Assembly (NCBI RefSeq): GCF_963921235.1
Contig: NC_086097.1
Span: 22,880,001 to 22,944,000 of the forward strand
Direction: 5' to 3'
DNA length: 64,000 bases
Source of the DNA: Mobula hypostoma
Taxonomy: Eukaryota
The notes beneath the pieces were generated by a model. The model saw only the letters and a list, made by a program, of their open reading frames with translations, was not told the DNA's origin and made no database searches. Below are positions 5,128 through 63,828 of the stretch, one piece after another. A program made the position numbers and the translations under genes. Each line of letters begins with the position of its first letter. Position 1 is the first letter of the stretch.

Positions 5128-5552
5128 GAAGATTAGCTTTATTTGTCACAAGATCATCGACAAATGCATTGAATTCTATTGCTTGTGTCAACAACCAGCA
5201 CACTCCAAGGATGTGCAGGGTGCAGCCTGCATGTGTTGCCATGCCCACACTTACCAACCATAACCCGTACATCTTTGAAGTGTGCAAGGCAACCAGAGCA
5301 CCCAGGGGAAACCCACGTTGTCAGGGGGAGAACGTACAAACTCCTTAAAGACAGAAAACACGAGGAAATCTGCCGATGCTGAAATTTCAAGCAACACACA
5401 TAAGTCGACGTTTTGAGACCTGGCCCGAAACGTTGACTGTACCTCTTCCTATAGATGCTGCCTGGCCTGCTGCGTTACACCAGCAATTTTTATGTGTGTT
5501 CCTTAAAGACAGTGGTGGGATTTGAACCCAGCTCTGTAAAGCATTGCACTGT
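5128..5552 (-). mobile_element. V-SINE interrupted by a Penelope-derived insertion
   Basis: V-domain (gagtttgtacgttctcccc...gggtttcccctgggtgctctgg on minus) split at 5355-5499. Confidence 0.8.
5355..5499. mobile_element. Fold-back Penelope-derived mini-insertion with 13-bp TSD
   Basis: TCCTTAAAGACAG at 5342-5354 and 5500-5512; left part is pLTR sequence on minus, right part on plus (aacacacataa...ttatgtgtgtt). Confidence 0.85.
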
Positions 5553-6799: not shown

Positions 6800-7070
6800 T
6801 GTCCATGATTCACTGTCCTCTCATATTAGATTCCTTCTTCAATCCCTTACCTCTTCCTCCTATCCCCTCCCAGCTTTGTGCTTCATCCCTTCCCCCTCAC
6901 TCACCCATTTTCCCCTCACCTGGTCTCACCTATCACCTTCCAGCTTGTACTCCTTCGCCCTCCACATCTCCTTATTCTGGCTTCAACCCCCATCCTCCTC
7001 AGACCTGACAAAGAGTCTCGAGCCAAAACATCAACACTTTGTTCACCTCCACAGATGCTACCTGACCTGA
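6800..7070 (+). mobile_element. Penelope-like 3' fragment
   Basis: Pyrimidine-rich 3' region, degenerate hammerhead (cctgacaaagagtctcgagccaaaacatcaac) and 'gatgctacctgacctg'. Confidence 0.75.
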
Positions 7071-11519: not shown

Positions 11520-12200
11520 GTTGACCACACTTAGAATATTGAAACATCCACGAAATGTTGGAGGAACTCAGCAGGCCAGGCAGCATCTATGGAAGGGAGT
11601 AAATGGTTGACTTTTCAGGCCGAGACCCTTCGTCAGGACCCTTCATCATCTTTTCCACAGAAGCTGCCTGGACTGCTGAGTTCCTCCGGCATTTTAAGTG
11701 TGTCACTTGGATTTCCAGCGTCTGCAGATTCAGACTATTGTGTTCAGTTCTAGTTGCCTCATTATAGGAAGGATATAGAAGTCTTAGATAGGGTGCAGAG
11801 GAGATTTACCAGGATGTTCCCTGAATTAGAGAGCATGTCTTATGAGGAGAGACTGTGCAAGCTAGGGCTTTTCTCTTTGGGGCCAAAGAGGATGAGAGGA
11901 GTACAGGATGGTAAGAGGCACAAGTCAAATGGCCAGCCAGCGATTTGTTTCCTCAGGCGGAATGGGCTCATGGGGGGCAGAGTTTCTTTGACATGGAGTG
12001 TGCGTGTGTGGAATGCTGTCAGGGTTAGTGGTGGAGATGTACACATTAGGGGCATACTAGATAGGCACGTTGGTGATAGCAAAATGGAAGGATATCTAGG
12101 AGGGAAGGGTTAGATCAATCTTACAGTAGGTTAAAAGGTTGGCACAACATTATCGGTCAAAGGGTCTGTACTGTGCTGTAATGTTTTATCTTCTATGATC
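11520..12200 (+). mobile_element. CR1 LINE 3' fragment, interrupted
   Basis: 'PHYRKDIEVLDRVQRRFTRMFPELESMSYEERL'; split at 11542-11735. Confidence 0.85.
11542..11735. mobile_element. Fold-back Penelope-derived mini-insertion
   Basis: Inverted arms ggaggaactcagcag...ctgctgagttcctcc; TATTG at 11537-41 and 11736-40. Confidence 0.8.
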
Positions 12201-13075: not shown

Positions 13076-15233
13076 TCTGCCCCAGTTCATCTCCAGTCTT
13101 GTGCCTGTTCCTAAGTGCTCTCAGATCCCCCATTTTTCAAAACGGTCTCGACTTCATGTTTAATTGCACCCCAATCATTCTAATTACATTGGGCCATGGA
13201 GGCAAACTATACCCAATTACATACTTTAAGTACGGTCACTTGCGGTATAATCTTTTCGCACATTCGCGTATGCGTTGTTTGTCATTTTTTCTCTGTTATG
13301 TACAGTTTTCCATAAAATTCCATTGTATTTCTTTTCTTCAAGTTCAAGTTTAATTGTCATCCAACCATACGCATGTATACAGCTAAACGAAAAAGCGTTC
13401 TTCCTGGGCCAAGGTGCAAAGCACAGTACATACAGTCGCACTCAGAAAATACAATCTCACACAGCACATGTAGTAATTACAGCACATGCAGTCACAAAAT
13501 AATATTAGCACCAGTCCCTGAGTGTCATGGCCTGAAGACTGATGCTGAAAGGATGTTATCCGGCGGCCACGCTTCTTCAAGAGCAAGCATGCAGCAGTTT
13601 CTCATTGCTCACAGCCGCAGAAGAAACGCCCGCAAGAAAATGAATCTCAGGGTTGTATATGGAAACATATATGTACTTTTATAATAAATTTACTTTGAAC
13701 TTTGAAGCACTTGAGTAAAATTTCACCCAGGTGCTTTTTCTGCCGGACATCCTGCACTTCAGGAGACAAAGAGTAAGGATTAAAAATTAAGGGGATATAA
13801 TTACAGATGTTATTTTGCTGCAGTAATTCAAGCATTAAAGTTACAAAATATTGATTTTGAGAACTGGAGTAAATTATCAATTCACTCTTATCAACTGACT
13901 GAATAAATAAACTGGCCTTGTAGACTAGCCACAAAATACAAACTGATTCTGAGTCCATTAAATTGAAAATCTAGGCCTATAAAGCAAGCTAAGTATGTAG
14001 AGATTTTATTTAAAGATTGGTATTTAAATAGCTTCTGGTAGAAAAGTTCAGAGTTGGAATTTTTCCTTTTGTTGGATGCCACTTCCCTCTTCAGGTCGAT
14101 TCCAATTTCGTCTCACGTCCAACAATATCTCTGTTTCAAAGTTCTTCATCTCATTGAAGACCTCGGATCTTCAATGATATGATCCACTGACTCTGCTTCT
14201 CCACTTCTGCTCTTGCACCTCTCTGATTTTAGTGCATGAGCCCTTAGCTGCTAGTTCTAAAGGTGTTTATCGATCCCCTTGCATTTACCCATTAAGATGT
14301 TCTTACAAACTCTCACTTTGACTCCCACTAGGAACCAACCAACCCCAAACCTCTTCCTCAACTCCTGAAGTTTATCCTCTTGTGTGGTTCCCCATTTAAT
14401 TTTGTTTGATACTGTAATATTGCCATGAAGCACTTCAAATCACATTTATTATCACTGACACATGTCATGAAATTTGTTGCTTTGCCGCAGCAGTGCAATA
14501 TAATACATGAAAATACAATGTTACAATAAGTGATATAAAAAATAAAACAAGCAGTGCAAAAACAGAACAAAATAGTAAAGTAATGTTCATGGGTTCATGG
14601 ACCATTCAGAAATCTGATGACAGGGTGGAAGAAGCTGTTTCTAAAACATTGAGTGTGTGTCTTCAGGCTCCCTTACCTCTACCCCAATGAAAATAACGAG
14701 AAGAGGGCATGTCTTGATGGTGGGGGTTCTCAATAATGAAAGCACTGTGCAGATTGTGGTGCTTTGGGATGTTTACCTGCATTGGAATGATCAGACAAAG
14801 TCACAAGGTAGGTGGGTGGACAGAACAGGGAATTTCGAGTAATTACATACTCATACATCTCCAGCCGTTCTTTCCTCAGCAACAAGGAAACAAGGACTCA
14901 GATTGATAAAGCTTTGTACTCGGTACATCAAGAAACATTTCCTTTCACCTTTCGTGCGCAAGGTTATGATTAAAGTTAGTGGCAGGCAAACTTTAATGTC
15001 AAAACAGTCCTTGCAAGCACAGAGCTGCATCATAACACTCAGAATGTTATTGTTTCAGCTTGACACACAATGTACATGTGGTCCCCATTCAATTGCTTGC
15101 AGCCTAAAGAAAATAAGAAAATCAACTAGCATATTTGTACAGGCTTTGGAAGCCACAAAATTTTTATACAACTGCATCAGTCAAAATGATACATTACATC
15201 CATCATTATTGTGACTTAATTTTCTTATATATA

Positions 15234-37580: not shown

Positions 37581-38019
37581 TGAATATCTAACAAGGTAAG
37601 GCATATTTTTCCCTCATTCATAATTTCACATAGACAGCTTCCAACACTTCAGATACTAAGTTCATGGTTTAAAACAATCCATAAAAATAACAGCCTGCAG
37701 TAAATGACTTGTCAGCAGAGGAATTTCCCCATGTATTATGTGCTGGATTAATATTATAAAGGAGAAATTTATTTTTCTCTTTTCCTATAAAGCAAATTTT
37801 TCATGCATAAACCTTTGTGTTGAACCTTTGTTCTAATAGAAATGCTTAGATTTGGCATCCACAAATAGCTTATAAAAATTCAGAGTGATGCATCATTGTT
37901 GCTAGAGGCAATAATGATCCCTGTTGAATGGAATACCCGAATCACAAAGATGTTAGCTTCATTTCTGCCTTGTTCGCTGTATCAACTTTTCAACTCCCCA
38001 GAAACATTTTCTCCAAGCC

Positions 38020-40125
38020 CCCCGCCCCACTAAGGAGCACCAGACCATTGTCTCCCACACCATCACCAACTTCATCAGCTCAAGGGATCTCCCATCCACT
38101 GCTCCCAACCTTATAGTTCCCACACCTCGTACTTCCCGTTTCTACCTCCTACCCAAGATCCACAAACCTGCCTGTCCAGGTTGACCCATTGTCTCAGCTT
38201 GATCCTGCCCCACCAAACTCATTTCTGCATACCTCAACACTGTTTTATCCCCCCTTGTTCAATCCCTTCCCACCTATGTTCGTGAATCTTCTCCGCTCTG
38301 AATCTTTTCAATGATTTTAAGTTCCCTGGCCCCCACTGCTTTATTTTCACCATGGATGTCCAGTCCCTATACTGTATATCTCCACCCCCCACCAAGAAGG
38401 TCTCAAAGCTCTCCACTTCTTTTTGGAATCCAGACCTAATCAGATCTACCACCACTCTGCTTTGTCTAGCGGAATTAGTCCTTACTCTTAATAATTTCTC
38501 CTTTAGCTCCACCCACTTCCTCCAAACTAAAGGTGTAGTCATGGGCTCCCATATTGGTCCCAGCCATGCCTGCCTTTCTGTTGGCTTTGCGGAACAATCC
38601 ATGTTCCAAGCCTATACTGGTACCTGTCCCCCACTTTTCCTTCGCTGTATCGATGACTGCATTGGCGCTGCTTCCTGCACGCATGCTGAGCTCGTTGACT
38701 TCATTAACTTTGCCTCCAACTTTCACCCTAACCTCAAGTTTACCTGGTCAATTTCCGACACCTCCCTCCCCTTTCTTGATCTTTCTGTCTCTATCTCTGG
38801 AGACAGCTTATCTGCTGATGTCTACTATAAGCCTACGGACTCTCACAGCTATCTGGACTATTCCACTTCCCACCCTGCCTCTTGCAAAAATGCCATCCCC
38901 GTCTTGCAATTCCTCCGTCTCTGCCTCATCTGCTCTCAGGATGAGGCTTTTCATTCCAGGATGAAGGAGATGTCCTCCTTTTTTAAAGAAAGGAACTTCC
39001 CTTCCTCCACCATCAACTCTGCTCTCAAACGCATCTCTCCAATTTCACGCACATCTGCTCTCACCCCATCCTCCCACCACCCCACTAGAAATAGGGTTCC
39101 CCTTGTCCTCACCTACCACCCCACCAGCCTCCGGGTCCAACGTATAATTCTTGTAACTTCCGCCACCTCCAACGGAATCCCACCACTAAGCACATCTTTC
39201 CCTCCCCCCCCCACTGCTTTCCGCAGGGATCGCTCCCTACACGACCCCCTTGTCCATTCGTCCCCCCCATCCCTCCCCACCGATCTCCCTCCTGGCACTT
39301 ATCCTTGTAAGTGGAACAAGTGCTACACATGCCCTTACACTTCCTCCCTCACCAGCATTCAGGGCCCCAGACAGTCCTTCCAGGTGAGGCGACACTTCAC
39401 CTGTGAGTCAGCTGGGTGATATACTGCGTCCGGTGCTCCTGATGCGGCCTTCTATATATTGGCGAGACCCGATGCAGGCTGGGAGACCGTTTCGCTGAAC
39501 ACCTACGCTCTGTCTGCCAGAGAAAGCAGGATCTCCTACTGGCCACACATTTTAATTCCACGTCCCATTCCCGTTCTGATATGTCTATCCACGGCCTCCT
39601 CTACTGTCAGGATGAAGCCACATTCAGGTTGGAGGAATAATGCCTTATATTCTGTCTGGGTAGCCTCCAGCCTGATGACATGAACATTGACTTCTCTAAC
39701 TTCCATTAATGCCCCACCTCCCCTTCGTACCCTATCCCTTATTTGTTTGTTTGTTTATTTATTTATCCCCCCCTTTTTTCCCCTCTCCTTTTTCTCCCTC
39801 TGTCCCTCTCACTATAACTCCTTGCCCATCCTCTGGGCTCCCCTCCCCCTTTCTTTCTCCCTAGGCCACCCATCCCATGATCCTCTCCCTTCTCCAGCCT
39901 CGTATCCCTTTTGCCAATCAACTTTCCAGCTCTTAGCTCCCTCCCTCCCCCTCCTGTCTTCTCCTATCATTTCGGATCTCCCCCTCCCCCTCCCACTTTC
40001 AAATCTCTTACTATCTCTTCTTTCAGTTAGTCCTGACGAAGGGTCTCGGCCTGAAACGTCAACTGTACCTCTTCCTATAGATGCTGCCTAGCCTGCTGCA
40101 TTCACCAGCGTTTTTTCTGTGTGTT
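38020..40125 (+). mobile_element. Penelope-like retroelement (Neptune-type): RT, Cys linker, GIY-YIG endonuclease and pLTR; 5'-truncated, frameshifted
   Basis: 'FYLLPKIHKP', 'MDVQSLY', 'QTKGVVMGS', 'LRCIDD', 'PFLDL', 'YYKPTDSHSYLDY', 'CKWNKCYTC', then 'VIYCVRCS*CGLLYIGETRCRLGDRFAEH'. Confidence 0.92.
40028..40065 (+). ncRNA. Minimal type-I hammerhead ribozyme motif in the Penelope pLTR
   Basis: agtc-CTGACGA-agg...cct-GAAA-CGTC-aact; palindromic ACGT stem III; C.A mismatch at the base of stem I. Confidence 0.65.
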
Positions 40126-41019
40126 TCTCCAAGCAACATTTGTTTTCCAAAATATGAGACCATAAGACCAGAAGAAAGAGGCCATTCAGCCCATTGCGTC
40201 TGTCCACCATTCCATTATTTATTTAGAGTACAGAGTAGGCCCTCCCAGCCCTTTGGGTCATACTGCACCGCAAGCACCTGATTTACTCCCAACCTAATCA
40301 CTGGACAATTTACAAAGACCAAATAACCTACCATCTGGTACATCTTTGGACTGTGAGAGGAAACCAGAGCATCCGGAGGAAACCCACACAGTCACAGGGA
40401 GAACGTGCAAACTCCTGAAAGGCATCAGCAGGAATTGAACCCTGGTTGCCTGTACTGTAAAGCATTGTGTTAACCACTGCGCTACTGTGGCGCTGATTCA
40501 TGGCTGATTCAGCATCCCTCTCAACCCCATTCTCCTGCCTTCTCCTCGTAACTTTTGACATCCTTACTAAGCAAGAACCTATCAACTTCCACTTCAAATT
40601 TACCCAATAACCTGGCATCCACAGCCAACTATGGCAATGAATACCACAGATTTACCAACTCTGACTAAAGAAATCGCTTCTAATCTCTGTATTCAAACCA
40701 GATTCCCTCACTATAGGAACCATACCCTCCTGATCCATGCTATCTAGGCCTTTCAATATTCAATAGGTTTCACTGAGGTCAACCACCTCCTTCTTGTTCT
40801 TCTAAACTCCAGTAAGTACAGGGAAGGAATGAGAAATAGTTTTTCTTTTCTCTCTGCTTGCTTATTCAATGATATTTTACAATGAAATATTATTGCTTGA
40901 AAATTGGGGCACATCGTGGATGCTGTTTTGCAGTTGTACGTATGATGAGCTTTGTTTCTAAAGCATTCACATTTATTTCGCTTGGAAATCTGATTCATTA
41001 TGAAATTGGACTTACACCT

Positions 41020-56768: not shown

Positions 56769-57367
56769 CATTAATGCTTTACCTTTAAGAACAAGTCAGA
56801 AACTCAGTATTTCCTGTTAAGTAATCTGTAGCTTGATTCTCCCAACTTTATCATTGAGTCAAAAGTAGATTGGAATGCTCTTAACTTTCCTGAAAGAGTG
56901 CAGTTCCAACAAGATACAGTCAAGAAAACGCTCAACATAATCCAAGCCATTTTAGTTAATTAGCGTACCATCCACCATTGTAAACATTAATTCTGTGCAC
57001 TACCTGCATGCCATGACTATGGTCTATTAGTTGGAAGATAATTTGCAATGTCTTTGTAAATATTATTTGAAACATCATCCGTACCAGTGACCTACCTTGT
57101 GGAGTACATGGACAATAGATGAAAGGGAACTCAATACCCAGTAAGTTTGCTTTGATTGCCAAGGATCAAAATCTTGTGTAACCGTGGGTGTTCACTCGGA
57201 ACGTGACGGCATTGTTTAAGATCATTTAGAGATGACAGAAGAATAAAAAAAATTCTGAGCAGGGTAAACTAACCAAGTCTTGAGAAACAAAAATAAATTG
57301 ATTAAACAAACATATGTTACATTCAATCATTAAGTCAACTGAAAAGCTGAGTTTATTTTCATTGACT

Positions 57368-57645
57368 AACAGACACGAAATGCTGTAGGAATTCCACAGG
57401 TCAGGCAGTATCTATGGAGGGGAATAAACAGTCGACGTGTCAGGCCAAGACCCTGGTTTAAGAGCAACACACACAAAATACTGGAGGAACTCAGCAGGTC
57501 GACAGCATCAATGGAAAAGAATAAACAGCCAATTCTCGGCACAAAACATCAACTATCCATAGATGCTGTCTGACCTGCTGAGTTCCTCCAGCATTTTCTG
57601 TGTGTTGCTTTGGATTCCAGCAACTGCAGACTTTCTCACGTTTAC
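57368..57645. mobile_element. Penelope-derived element: two minus pLTR pieces then one plus piece
   Basis: Repeated 'ggaggaactcagcagg' with inverse 'cctgctgagttcctcc'. Confidence 0.75.
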
Positions 57646-58495: not shown

Positions 58496-58848
58496 GGTAG
58501 ATAGACAGATTGATAGTCGGTAGATGCTGTTGCTAGACATACACCTTTGATCATCCTAGTCACGTATTGATTCAAAACCATGAAGTGATTGTATTGAGTT
58601 ATTATATTGTCAGACAACTAGAAGTTCAGCATGAATTTCTTCAACTAATATAGTGGAATTTAATTCAGTCAATGATAATTTTATCAACTTATTCAGACAA
58701 GTTTATGAAATTATCAACGACTGAATTAGAAGACAACATCTAATTAGTTCAGGTAAATAGGATGAGCGCACGATTTTCAACTTTCATAATCTATTAGCGT
58801 GCCTGCATATCTGTGCTTTCTTAACATGGGAGGAATATATTTATCTAC

Positions 58849-60960: not shown

Positions 60961-62228
60961 TACCACTGTCGACATCAACAAATGTGGAATAAAATTTGTC
61001 TCAACAGTAATGAAATAGATGCAAATGTTATTTTTTTTTGCATCAGATGCATATTGCTGTTTTCCATATCTCAGAAAAATAATTTGGTTGAACTCCTAGG
61101 GACGTTCATTATTTATTACTCCAAATGTTTGAACTTAATTATGTCATCTTGCAGAACCTTTTAAACAGTCATAATTAGGAGCAATAATAATAATTGCCGT
61201 GGTTACAGATGTTCAATAAAACTGAGATGACATGCCTTCACTCGCATGCTCAGAGCGGGCACCAGGCAGCTGGCTTCTGGAGCGCCTGCTGTGGATGTCA
61301 TTTATTGTGGGATAGTGACCAAATACGGACTGGTGCTATGTAATAAAAATCTAAAAACATTCGACACTATAGCACTCTATTGCAGGAAGTAATTTGGGGA
61401 ATGTGGCAGTGATTTTGTACCCGTCAGTGTAATAATAAGGATGATGCTATCCCAAAGCACTATATAATTTGTACTCTCTGGATGAATAAAAATCGGTAAT
61501 GCAAGAGAACAAAACATGAAATGAATTCCACAACAAATTAACTGGACCATTTTCTTCCATAACAGAGATATATTTGTGGTTCGTCTTTCCCTGCCTTGGT
61601 TTTCTAAAAGGGCTTGGTGTGTCAAACTTCAAAGTAAATTTATTATCATAGCACATATACGTCACCATATCCAACCCCTAAGATTCATTTTCTTGCAGGC
61701 ATACTCAATAAATCCCTAGTAGAATAATAACCATAGTGGAACACCACACCAACATGGGCATACAACCTGTGTACAAAAGCCAATAAACTGCAAATACAGA
61801 AAGAAAGAAATAATAATAATAATAATAAATAAATAAGCAATAAATATTGAGACCATGAGATGAACAGTCCTTGAAAATCCATAGGTTGTTGAGACTTTTT
61901 TTACGTGCCCATGGTCTGTTCTTTATCAAATTACGGTATTGCTTTGCTTTGCACTGTTGTAACTATATGTTATAATTATGTGGTTTTTGTCAGTTTTTCA
62001 GTCTTGGTTTGTCTCGTGTTTCTGTGATATCATTCTGGAGGAACATTGTATCATTTCTTAATTCATGCATTACTAAATGACAGTAAAAGAGGACTGCGTG
62101 TCCTCATAATCTAATCTAATTTCAGTGAACGGGTGAGTGAAGTTGAGTGAAGTTATCCCATTTGGTTCAAGAGCCTGATGGTTGAGGGGTAATAACTGTT
62201 CCTGAAAGTATGTTTATGTAACCATATA

Positions 62229-62538
62229 TCTCCCCCTCCCCCTCCAACTTTCAAATCCCTTACTCACTCTTCCTTCAGTTAGTCCTGACGAAGGGTCTCG
62301 GCCTGAAACGTCTCCATCCCTCCCCCTCCTGTCTTCTCCTATCATTTTGGATCTCCCCCTCCCCCTCCAACTTTCAAATCCCTTACTCACTCTTCCTTCA
62401 GTTAGTCCTGACAAAGGGTCTCGGCCTGAAACGTCGACTGCACCTCTTCCTAGAGATGCTGCCTGGCCTGCTGCGTTCACCAGCAACTTTTATGTGTGTT
62501 GCTTGAATTTCCAGCATCTGCAGAATTCCTGTTGTTTG
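62229..62538 (+). mobile_element. Partial-tandem Penelope pLTR insertion with two hammerhead motifs
   Basis: 85-nt units 62228-62312 and 62351-62435 differ at one base; inserted between 'ccatata' and 'ctaccctgag' of a Rex1-type tail. Confidence 0.9.
62280..62440 (+). ncRNA. Predicted composite hammerhead ribozyme
   Basis: Core CTGACGA/GAAA from unit 1; ACGT:ACGT stem III between the units; GTC site and stem I (tagtc:gactg) completed by unit 2. Confidence 0.55.
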
Positions 62539-63828
62539 CTACCCTGAGATTCATTTTCTTGCAGGCATTCACAGTAGAACAAAGAAATACAATAGAATCA
62601 ATGAAAAACTGCATACGTGCACATACTGACAAGCAACCGATGTCCAGAAAAGACGAACTGTGCAAATACAAAAATATAATAAAAAAAGAAAGAAAATAGA
62701 TGTACAATTCAATAAATGCACAGTGCAGAGTACCCTGACTGGTAACAGCAATGCCTGGTATTGAAACACCAAAGCACAAGAATGGAAAAGCCTAAAAAAT
62801 GTCGGGATACAGCTCAGTCCATCACAGAAAAAATCCTCCCCAGCATTGAACACATCTCCAGCGCCACTACGTTGAGGTATTGTTACAGACATCATCAGAG
62901 CACTTTCCCTTAATCATTCATGCAATATACAGTTAGACATTTAAACTCTTGTGGTTTTGTTAGGTAAAGGTATTGAGGGTTGCAGAACCGAGGTGGGTAG
63001 ATGGGATGTTGCACAGATTAGTCCACCTTTGGAGTCTTCTAAATAAATATCCAGGAAGACACTCCAGTAATGTATTAAATGGATTTCCAGTTTAGTTAAA
63101 TATTAAAGTTCAATTCTGGGTTCCTGACAACATATCTCCCTCAGTCAGCAATTTCTGAAAAACAATATTTGAACATGTCTACTATAGTAATTGTGAGATC
63201 TTAAGAGCATAGAACATAGAACACTACAGCGCAATACGGGCCCGCAATGTCTTCTACTGTACCTTCTCCAAAGACTCTGCACCCTCTCCTGTAACGGGGT
63301 GGCCAGAATTGCACTCTGCTACTCCAAATGCAGCTGAAGTCAAGTTTTATGTAACTGCAGCCTGAGGTAACTGGAATTAAAATGTTGTTCAATTGTGGTC
63401 TTACTGCACGGTAGAAGAGGGGTAATGGGCTGAACAGTCTGCTCATGTTCACAGATCCAAAGTATTATTCATTCTGTGCTGGGAAGAGCTGGAGTGGTGA
63501 ACAGCAGATGCATAGGGGCAGGGTGCACTGGTGGGGAAGGGGAAGAAAAGCTATTTCTTTCTTTCCTGCAACCTGACAGCTTGCAACTGAAAATATAGGA
63601 GCCGAAATGGTGGGAAATGAGTATGTTATGCATTGAAGTCATTTTTATTCTTAAACCCATGAACATGTCAGTATAACGGTCTTTTGCAGTACCAGGCTGA
63701 GATCTGTTCAACCTATCTGAGCAATGAGGAAGGATTGAAAGAGCAAGGGCTTTTCTCTTTGGAGAGGAGGATGAGAGGTGACATGATAGAAGTGGATAAG
63801 GCGGGTCTGGGGAAGACGGAGTCTGCGT

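What the first reader, a model, noticed from the sequence alone, without database searches (positions are those of the whole stretch)
62228..62538. Tandem Penelope ends truncated at the hammerhead cleavage site and able to reconstitute one complete ribozyme
Seen: two 85-nt units differ by one base. Unit 1 has an intact core (CTGACGA...GAAA) and stops exactly after GAAACGTC (62312). Unit 2 has a mutated core (CTGACAA) but keeps GTC-GACTG. Established: Penelope-like elements carry minimal hammerheads whose short palindromic stem III requires a dimeric fold, and cleavage follows the NUH triplet. Inference: the unit-1 end records reverse transcription of a self-cleaved RNA end by template jump. 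In a plus-strand transcript, unit 1's core could pair with unit 2 (stem III ACGU:ACGU, stem I uaguc:gacug) and cut after 62435, so each unit supplies what the other lacks.
Basis: partly seen in the sequence, partly recalled or inferred. Interest (0 to 1): 0.75.

Follow-up and report, generated by a model that had tools for sequence, protein, structure and literature searches.

The report
Penelope tandem ending at ribozyme cut
A young 311-base scrap of a Penelope-like jumping gene has two head-to-tail units, and the first stops within one base of where the element's small self-cutting RNA motif is predicted to cut; this may record a cut RNA end being copied into the genome, but one such case could as well be chance.

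Summary
Units 62228-62312 and 62351-62435 match at 84 of 85 bases. They are the end repeat of an RT + GIY-YIG Penelope-like element; a longer copy at 38.0-40.1 kb carries the enzymes. The 311 bp sit in an older repeat with no target duplication. Unit 1 ends at the predicted cut or one base before it, with 1 nt of overlap, though 55 of 225 possible ends offer 2 or more. Of 24 profile-found copies in the window, 22 run on into the tail and only unit 1 stops here. This fits a template jump or RtcB ligation onto a cut RNA end (about 0.45), but chance (about 0.4) is not excluded; no genome was held for the decisive count. The 'mutual complementation' is incidental: unit 2's G8A is a CpG change in roughly 12-14% of family contig depth, and the active fold is predicted 6-14 kcal/mol uphill. 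Earlier scan notes on this genome found the same family, and only mild enrichment of 5' ends at the cut.

The parts
62228..62312 (+). Unit 1: 5'-truncated upstream pLTR piece, positions -85 to -1 relative to the predicted hammerhead cut; ends GAAACGTC
   Evidence: 94% identical to the 40-kb copy 39976-40060
62280..62312 (+). Unit-1 hammerhead enzyme half: stem I 5' strand (62280-84), CUGACGA (62285-91), stem II (62292-304, closing pair A-U or G-U instead of G10.1-C11.1), GAAA (62305-08), palindromic ACGU (62308-11), C17 (62312); no stem I 3' strand follows
   Evidence: motif anatomy from PMC4209133
62266..62296 (+). Predicted hairpin (pyrimidine tract paired with CUGA and GAAGGG) that would sequester unit 1's catalytic core; -10.5 kcal/mol, also predicted in unit 2 (-7.1) and the 40-kb copy (-8.9)
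62312..62313 (+). Head-to-tail junction between the cut-site end of unit 1 and position -123 of unit 2; 1 nt (C) shared, no added bases
   Evidence: (loose ends at 62312)
62313..62350 (+). 38 nt of pLTR pyrimidine tract present only in the downstream unit (-123 to -86)
   Evidence: matches the 40-kb copy 39938-39975
62351..62435 (+). Unit 2 repeat part (-85 to -1); core CTGACAA with G8A at 62413, a CpG transition; predicted cut after 62435
62436..62538 (+). Stem I 3' strand (62436-40) and the family's long 3' tail (+1 to +103), the usual right end of these insertions
   Evidence: tail meaning from PMC11167929
62205..62228 (+). Left half of the older host repeat that the insertion split (ends ...CCATATA; A62228 is shared with the element)
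   Evidence: unsplit copies near 61655-61710 and at 13655 on the minus strand; loose-end table at 62539
62539..62610 (+). Right half of the host repeat (starts CTACCCTGAG); no target-site duplication and no target deletion
   Evidence: (D7)
37957..40128 (+). Longer, broken copy of the same family used as reference: RT, C-x4-C-xx-C linker, GIY-YIG endonuclease, then the same pLTR, hammerhead and short tail in sense

Best explanation
This is a young, non-coding partial-tandem insertion of a Penelope-like retrotransposon, likely made in one reverse-transcription event in which the enzyme probably passed from a broken template onto the free 3' end of an RNA cut by the element's hammerhead. Shown: the insert reads host / -85..-1 / -123..+103 / host, with no target duplication and a 1-nt overlap at the inner join. 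Inferred order: RT started in the tail (+103), copied an uncut RNA through its hammerhead and reached that RNA's end at -123. It then continued on a second RNA ending in GUC, the cDNA's last G pairing with the terminal C17, and stopped after 85 nt. An equivalent route is RtcB joining the cut end (2',3'-cyclic phosphate) to a 5'-OH fragment before copying; sequence cannot tell the two apart, and I favour the jump about 2 to 1. The one complete dimer hammerhead that can be drawn from the two units is a by-product and is predicted to fold poorly.
For: (1) Layout: the upstream unit is the shorter one and abuts the host junction. A plain DNA tandem duplication would leave the longer copy first. (2) Both units carry the same five differences from the 40-kb copy. 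For the four of them with a row at the unit-2 position, the locus base is common in organism A's contig depth (other letter 17-40%) and mostly rare in organisms D and E (other letter 97-100%, 69% in one cell). They are subfamily states, so identical templates were available at insertion. (3) The end is unusual: 22 of 24 profile-found copies run at least 66 nt past the cut, 1 ends at +38, and only unit 1 ends at the cut. The window's other direct tandem (57534-57459 / 57454-57367, minus strand) breaks at the ordinary tail, +73. (4) Overlap at the join is 1 nt, though 55 of 225 possible ends offer 2 or more and 7 of 225 offer 4 or more, so homology did not pick this site. (5) End-to-end jumps guided by one base pair are shown for a group II intron RT (PMC8363836, passages) and R2 RT (PMC8857657, passages). 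RtcB joining of a cyclic-phosphate end to a 5'-truncated element RNA before retrotransposition is shown for U6/L1 (PMC6789731, passages). (6) Weak hint: 1 of the 15 listed joints (organism B, 1 contig, depth 231, letters between not known) leaves at 62311 and re-enters at -59.
Against: (1) n = 1, picked out by a reader looking for oddities. At 0.9-2% per non-tail end and about 2 such ends per window, about 5-11 chance hits are expected in 275 windows (rough figure). (2) A 1-nt overlap is not diagnostic: 67 of 225 possible ends have exactly 1 nt, and 103 have none. (3) For the only PLE tested, the anole Poseidon, hammerhead cleavage was not needed for insertion, uncut RNA was the dominant substrate, and no RNA-seq reads began or ended at the cut (PMC11167929). 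(4) Minimal PLE hammerheads cut weakly even as dimers (PMC4209133), and only 1 of 9 frog dimers cut in vitro (bioRxiv 10.64898/2026.07.22.740005). (5) This subfamily has U at 11.1 in about 94% of organism A's depth, losing the conserved G10.1-C11.1 pair. (6) Earlier notes on this genome report the cut site as only a minor hot spot for 5' ends (e1-9848786, e1-9850483, e1-9958889; not checked here). (7) Whether PLE RT accepts a cyclic-phosphate 3' end is untested; from recall, 3'-phosphate ends hinder such jumps.
Confidence: 0.45

Rival explanations
1. Same single insertion event, but the switch point is accidental: RT slipped, or a cDNA or RNA break was rejoined, at a position that happens to be the hammerhead cut; the ribozyme played no part.
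For: One case among very many copies (24 in this 64 kb), with about 5-11 chance hits expected over 275 windows (rough). Listed back-jumps also leave at -92, +79 and about +98. PMC11167929 finds no RNA ends at the cut. PLE insertions are known for variable partial tandems and microhomology joins (PMC3846280; PMC8557442).
Against: A homology-guided switch had better sites: 55 of 225 ends offer 2 nt or more. Non-tail ends are rare here (2 of 24), and one of the two hits a 2-base target.
Confidence: 0.4
2. The junction arose once in a source element or in a 123-nt circle (a retrozyme-like tandem of the pLTR) and was then copied here, so this locus records nothing about its own insertion.
For: PLE-derived hammerhead tandem repeats occur in vertebrates, including a cartilaginous fish (bioRxiv 10.64898/2026.07.22.740005). 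Circular templates were proposed for PLE tandems (PMC4209133). One search shows multi-contig back-jumps in this family (62344 to 62312, 7 contigs in X1).
Against: A unit whose junction lacks the stem I 3' strand could not cut again, so it makes a poor retrozyme. In one search, contigs entering at 62312 carry the normal upstream element sequence. Contigs that span the junction could not be counted.
Confidence: 0.1
3. A later DNA-level rearrangement at this locus (duplication plus deletion, templated repair patch) or an assembly error made unit 1.
For: The units differ at only 1 of 85 bases, and no listed contig piece spans the junction (32 listed).
Against: It needs two steps or a patch landing exactly at the host junction. 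The near identity is explained by youth: 1 of 8 CpG sites has decayed, and no listed position inside the insert shows another letter in more than 60% of X1 depth. An assembler would not invent the one-base difference and the 38-nt offset.
Confidence: 0.05

Closest known systems
Minimal type-I hammerheads in pLTRs of metazoan Penelope-like elements (Cervera and De la Pena 2014, PMC4209133; parts 1-2 of 4 read)
   Same: CUGANGA, stem II, GAAA, loopless palindromic ACGU helix III that needs a partner, GUC cut triplet, 5-bp helix I, extra A before stem II, sense position in the pLTR, most copies truncated.
   Different: U at 11.1 replaces the conserved C. The paper describes no truncated unit ending at the cut; it proposes circular templates, whose junction would be seamless.
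EN+ Penelope-like element partial tandems with tail (PMC8557442 passages; PMC3846280 passages; Poseidon of Anolis, PMC11167929 parts 1-2 of 4)
   Same: 5'-truncated upstream unit joined head-to-tail to a longer unit; two preferred right ends about 30-35 nt apart (about +70 and +100); AT-rich target; target duplication optional.
   Different: The upstream unit lacks the tail and ends at the ribozyme site. The family's linker has C-x4-C-xx-C, which PMC8557442 ties to Neptune and Nematis rather than Poseidon; no tree was built.
U6/LINE-1 chimeras made by RtcB (PMC6789731, passages)
   Same: An RNA with a defined cyclic-phosphate 3' end joined to a variably 5'-truncated element RNA and retrotransposed as one piece.
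   Different: Here the defined end would come from the element's own ribozyme, both parts are from one family, and the ligation is only inferred.
End-to-end template jumping by group II intron and R2 RTs (PMC8363836, PMC8857657; passages)
   Same: Precise join to the 3'-terminal base of an acceptor RNA through one base pair.
   Different: Not reported for PLE RT in the passages seen; acceptors with a cyclic phosphate were not addressed in them.
Non-LTR retrozymes (bioRxiv 10.64898/2026.07.22.740005, parts 1-3 of 5)
   Same: Short head-to-tail repeat of a PLE pLTR with a type-I hammerhead.
   Different: Neither unit holds a complete hammerhead, so it fails their criterion of two consecutive complete motifs.

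Membership tests
EN+ Penelope-like element | RT followed by a C-terminal GIY-YIG endonuclease in the parent element | tested here: met
   The 40-kb sister copy shares the pLTR at 91-94%. Its RT piece is 45% identical to P0016 and its EN piece 50%, and P0016 has Pfam RVT_1 (29.4 bits, cut-off 29.6) and GIY-YIG (25, cut-off 22.6). 91 homologues at E up to 0.001. The window's own broken pieces hit no Pfam family.
EN+ Penelope-like element | Partial tandem or inverted pLTR structure with an optional 30-40 nt tail | tested here: met
   3' ends cluster at +66..+79 and at or beyond the profile end, +88/89; head-to-head pairs at 11640/11642, 17847/17914, 28806, 57534.
Neptune clade of PLEs | CX2-5CxxC linker between RT and EN; placement in an RT tree | tested here: inconclusive
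   Linker CKWNKCYTC is present; no tree was built.
Minimal type-I hammerhead (min-HHR) | Intact CUGANGA, GAAA, palindromic 15.1-16.1 and NUH in one unit | tested here: met
   Met by unit 1; unit 2 fails at G8. 2 of 15 copies examined keep both boxes and ACGT: 40028 and unit 1.
Minimal type-I hammerhead (min-HHR) | Helix I closed by the strand after the cut | tested here: inconclusive
   Not met within unit 1 (TCCAT follows); met only across units, 62280-84 with 62436-40.
Minimal type-I hammerhead (min-HHR) | Conserved G10.1-C11.1 pair | tested here: not met
   Closing pair is G-U or A-U; T at this site is the common state in organism A.
Minimal type-I hammerhead (min-HHR) | Self-cleavage as a dimer | not testable with these tools
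   Folding puts the active form 6-14 kcal/mol above the free ensemble in 6 of 6 constructs; tertiary contacts, Mg2+ and protein help are not modelled.
Active non-LTR retrozyme | Two or more consecutive units each with a complete hammerhead | tested here: not met
   Unit 1 lacks the stem I 3' strand; unit 2 has G8A.
Retro-insertion templated by a ribozyme-cut RNA end | Excess of element ends at the cut position over background | tested here: inconclusive
   1 of 24 copies and 1 of 2 direct tandems in the window; no genome held; the contig lay-over listed only the best-supported ends.

The most novel reading that the evidence does not exclude
Penelope-like elements use their hammerhead in vivo, and the cut 3' end (GUC) is a normal landing site for their RT. 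RT starts in the tail near the 5' end of a cut-to-cut monomer RNA, runs off at +1 and jumps (or is led by RtcB ligation) to -1, rebuilding the ribozyme without a scar. Rare mis-joins from a broken template, like this one, are the visible fossils. A genome with hundreds of thousands of copies would then hold a countable record of ribozyme cleavage.
Probability: 0.2. Interest if true: 0.75.

Novelty: new member of a known kind. Interest (0 to 1): 0.35.

Why it matters
The role of the hammerhead in Penelope-like elements is open: PMC8557442 calls it unclear, and PMC11167929 found it dispensable in vitro with no RNA ends at the cut. Upstream units that stop at the cut would be genomic evidence of cleavage in the germ line, and would explain how an RT that starts near the front of the RNA can copy a whole element. 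This locus suggests a cheap test, counting 3' ends of upstream units, which differs from the 5'-end counts in the earlier scan notes I saw. On its own it is one dead 311-bp insertion with no sign of function.

Tried and rejected
Genome-wide count: no genome is held for this window. Public collections gave no copies of the family: viral contigs 0 and 0, GTDB genomes 0, JGI metagenomes 1 match whose flanks are unrelated, discarded as chance. Sequencing runs: 20 of 24 listed rows hold part of 61500-63500; no RNA holder listed, which says nothing on expression. Laying 4 DNA runs gave family letter frequencies but not an end histogram: 24 loose ends were listed and 2025 not, 15 joints were listed and 360 not, X1 and X7 were not fully counted, and even the ordinary tail ends are absent from the list, so the lack of a row at 62435 is uninformative. 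The joints from 62299-62312 to 62429-62454 were set aside as other subfamilies that differ just after the cut. Rfam: no hammerhead hit. Pfam and NCBIfam on the window's broken RT and EN pieces: nothing useful. Rejected: strong microhomology as the cause of the join (1 nt only); the shared variants as private mutations pointing to a late duplication (they are subfamily states); G8A as a designed complement (CpG change, recurrent). Literature: 'Penelope + template jump + hammerhead' 0 papers; 'Penelope + partial tandem + template switch + microhomology + junction' 0; searches listed no title on PLE junctions at the cut. The library lacks most subscription papers. Lunse et al. 2017 on dimer cleavage was not held and is known to me only from its citation. 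The supplements of PMC11167929 returned no text hits for 4 terms, and its figure S2 may bear on ends at the cut. (G10.1-C11.1 effect) was seen as a listing only and is not used.

Full report
Observation. The two 85-nt units are there (62228-62312 and 62351-62435, 123 nt apart) and differ only at G62290/A62413, the G8 position of the hammerhead box. Unit 1 reads CTGACGA, a 13-nt stem II, GAAA, CGTC and then TCCATCCC. Unit 2 reads CTGACAA and continues GTC-GACTG into a 103-nt tail. Rfam found no hammerhead here; the motif is identified by the minimal-hammerhead anatomy of PMC4209133 (parts 1-2 of 4 read).

What the element is. A longer copy at 37957-40128 shares the same end at 91-94%. Upstream of it lie a broken RT and a GIY-YIG endonuclease: the two pieces are 45% and 50% identical to protein P0016, which carries RVT_1 and GIY-YIG, and 91 longer homologues were found. 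Its linker has C-x4-C-xx-C, which PMC8557442 (passages) associates with Neptune and Nematis; I built no tree. The hammerhead lies in sense after the stop codon. Earlier scan notes call the host a ray; I did not test that. A profile of the hammerhead and tail finds 25 hits, 24 copies, in the window.

Anatomy of the insertion. In coordinates of the cut, the insert is -85..-1 followed by -123..+103. It splits an older repeat: the left flank ends CCATATA and the right begins CTACCCTGAG, the same join seen unsplit at 13655 (minus strand), near 61655-61710 and in contig loose ends. There is no target duplication or deletion, and one A is shared at the left junction. At the inner join, the C at 62312 can belong to either unit, because the element's own base at -124 is C. 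Unit 1 therefore ends at the cut or one base before it, with no added bases.

Age and templates. Both units share five differences from the 40-kb copy. Contigs of four runs laid on 62130-62640 (summed depth, not copy number, and biased towards the reference) show these to be subfamily states. For four sites the other letter makes up 17-40% of depth in organism A and 97-100% in D and E, apart from one cell at 69%. No listed position inside the insert has another letter above 60% in X1, while the host flank does (62160, 92%), so the insert is young. The non-G letter at G8 makes up about 12% (X1) and 14% (X7) of depth by my rough sum over both units, like neighbouring CpG changes at 7-16%. The same CTGACAA stands in an older copy at 7000. 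G8A is ordinary decay.

How unusual is the end? Of 24 copies, 22 run at least 66 nt past the cut, one stops at +38 and unit 1 stops at the cut. The profile is weighted to the tail, so old copies ending at or before the cut could be missed. The window's other direct tandem breaks at +73. Scanning all 225 possible ends against the resumption point gives 103 with no overlap, 67 with 1 nt and 55 with 2 or more: homology did not choose this site, but 1 nt is also what chance often gives. The shorter unit lies upstream and touches the host, which fits continuous reverse transcription from the tail and not a plain DNA duplication.

Mechanism. For the anole element, RT starts inside the RNA at two sites that define the tail (PMC11167929, parts 1-2 of 4), matching the two groups of right ends here. 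I infer that RT copied an uncut RNA from +103 to -123 and then went on at a 3' end at -1. A cut hammerhead supplies such an end. Group II intron and R2 RTs jump to an acceptor's last base through one base pair (PMC8363836, PMC8857657; passages). RtcB can join a cyclic-phosphate end to a 5'-truncated element RNA before retrotransposition (PMC6789731; passages). Either route gives this sequence. I put a cut-end origin at about 0.45.

Against it. This is one case chosen for looking odd; a rough sum gives 5-11 chance hits in 275 windows. The anole study found cleavage dispensable and no RNA-seq reads ending at the cut. Minimal hammerheads cut weakly, and 1 of 9 frog dimers cut (bioRxiv 10.64898/2026.07.22.740005, parts 1-3 of 5). 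This subfamily lacks the G10.1-C11.1 pair. Earlier notes on this genome report that 5' ends favour the ribozyme's upstream edge and only mildly the cut (unchecked leads), and none of the notes listed in my look-ups that returned any described an upstream unit ending at the cut in a direct tandem. The genome-wide test could not be run: no genome is held, collection scans were empty or chance, and one search lists only the best-supported ends and joints. One listed joint, in organism B, leaves at 62311 and re-enters at -59; it is a single contig with unknown letters between, a hint only. Chance stays at about 0.4, an inherited junction at 0.1, and a later rearrangement or assembly error at 0.05.

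The reconstituted ribozyme. In a dimer, unit 1's core and stem I strand act on unit 2's GUC, so one complete hammerhead can be drawn. It needs nothing from G8A, and the reciprocal hammerhead is impossible in any case because unit 1's site has no stem I partner. ViennaRNA gives the ACGU:ACGU helix a probability near 0.5 in 62260-62470, but stem I about 0.00001, because a hairpin at 62266-62296 buries the core. The active fold costs 6-14 kcal/mol in 6 of 6 constructs. These numbers ignore tertiary contacts, Mg2+ and protein help, which the anole ribozyme needed. Transcription of this locus was not tested; no RNA holder was listed.

Known and new. Minimal PLE hammerheads, their dimer requirement, partial tandems and tails are all in print. 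I found no paper on PLE tandem junctions at the cut, within a library that lacks most subscription papers and Lunse et al. 2017; figure S2 of PMC11167929 could not be read as text. The locus is a new member of a known kind. Its value is as a lead to one clean test, the count of upstream-unit 3' ends. Interest 0.35.

Noticed in passing
run X7, joint 62311 to 62377: One organism-B contig (depth 231, 27 letters on the shorter side, letters between not known) leaves one base short of the cut and re-enters at -59; possibly a second tandem join near the cut site.
   Followed up: no
window 62266-62296, 62389-62419, about 40015-40043: The pyrimidine tract just upstream of the hammerhead is predicted to pair with the CUGA box and GAAGGG in all three young copies folded; it could be a built-in off switch consistent with protein-assisted cutting.
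   Followed up: partly
window 62304 and 62427: U instead of C at hammerhead position 11.1 is the common state in organisms A and B (other letter 6% and 13% of depth) but not in D and E (40%, 62%): the subfamily that expanded here has a weakened stem II.
   Followed up: partly
window 57367-57640: Three-part insertion: head-to-head pair at 57534 plus a direct partial tandem on the minus strand whose upstream unit ends at the short tail, +73.
   Followed up: partly
window 5356-5505: Head-to-head pair whose minus-strand arm has an internal deletion starting 3-4 nt after the cut and resuming about +57.
   Followed up: no
   Followed up: no
window 58661-58728: 30-bp inverted repeat with an 8-nt loop, AT-rich, next to the U2 piece (I6).
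   Followed up: no
window 37957-40128: 2.2-kb broken PLE copy with a 377-codon open RT stretch and a C-x4-C-xx-C linker of Neptune type.
   Followed up: partly
run X15, joints from 62529 back to 62453-62455: High-depth back-jumps from the long tail end to about +18..+20, suggesting a tandem of about 80 nt made of tail only in organism E.
   Followed up: no
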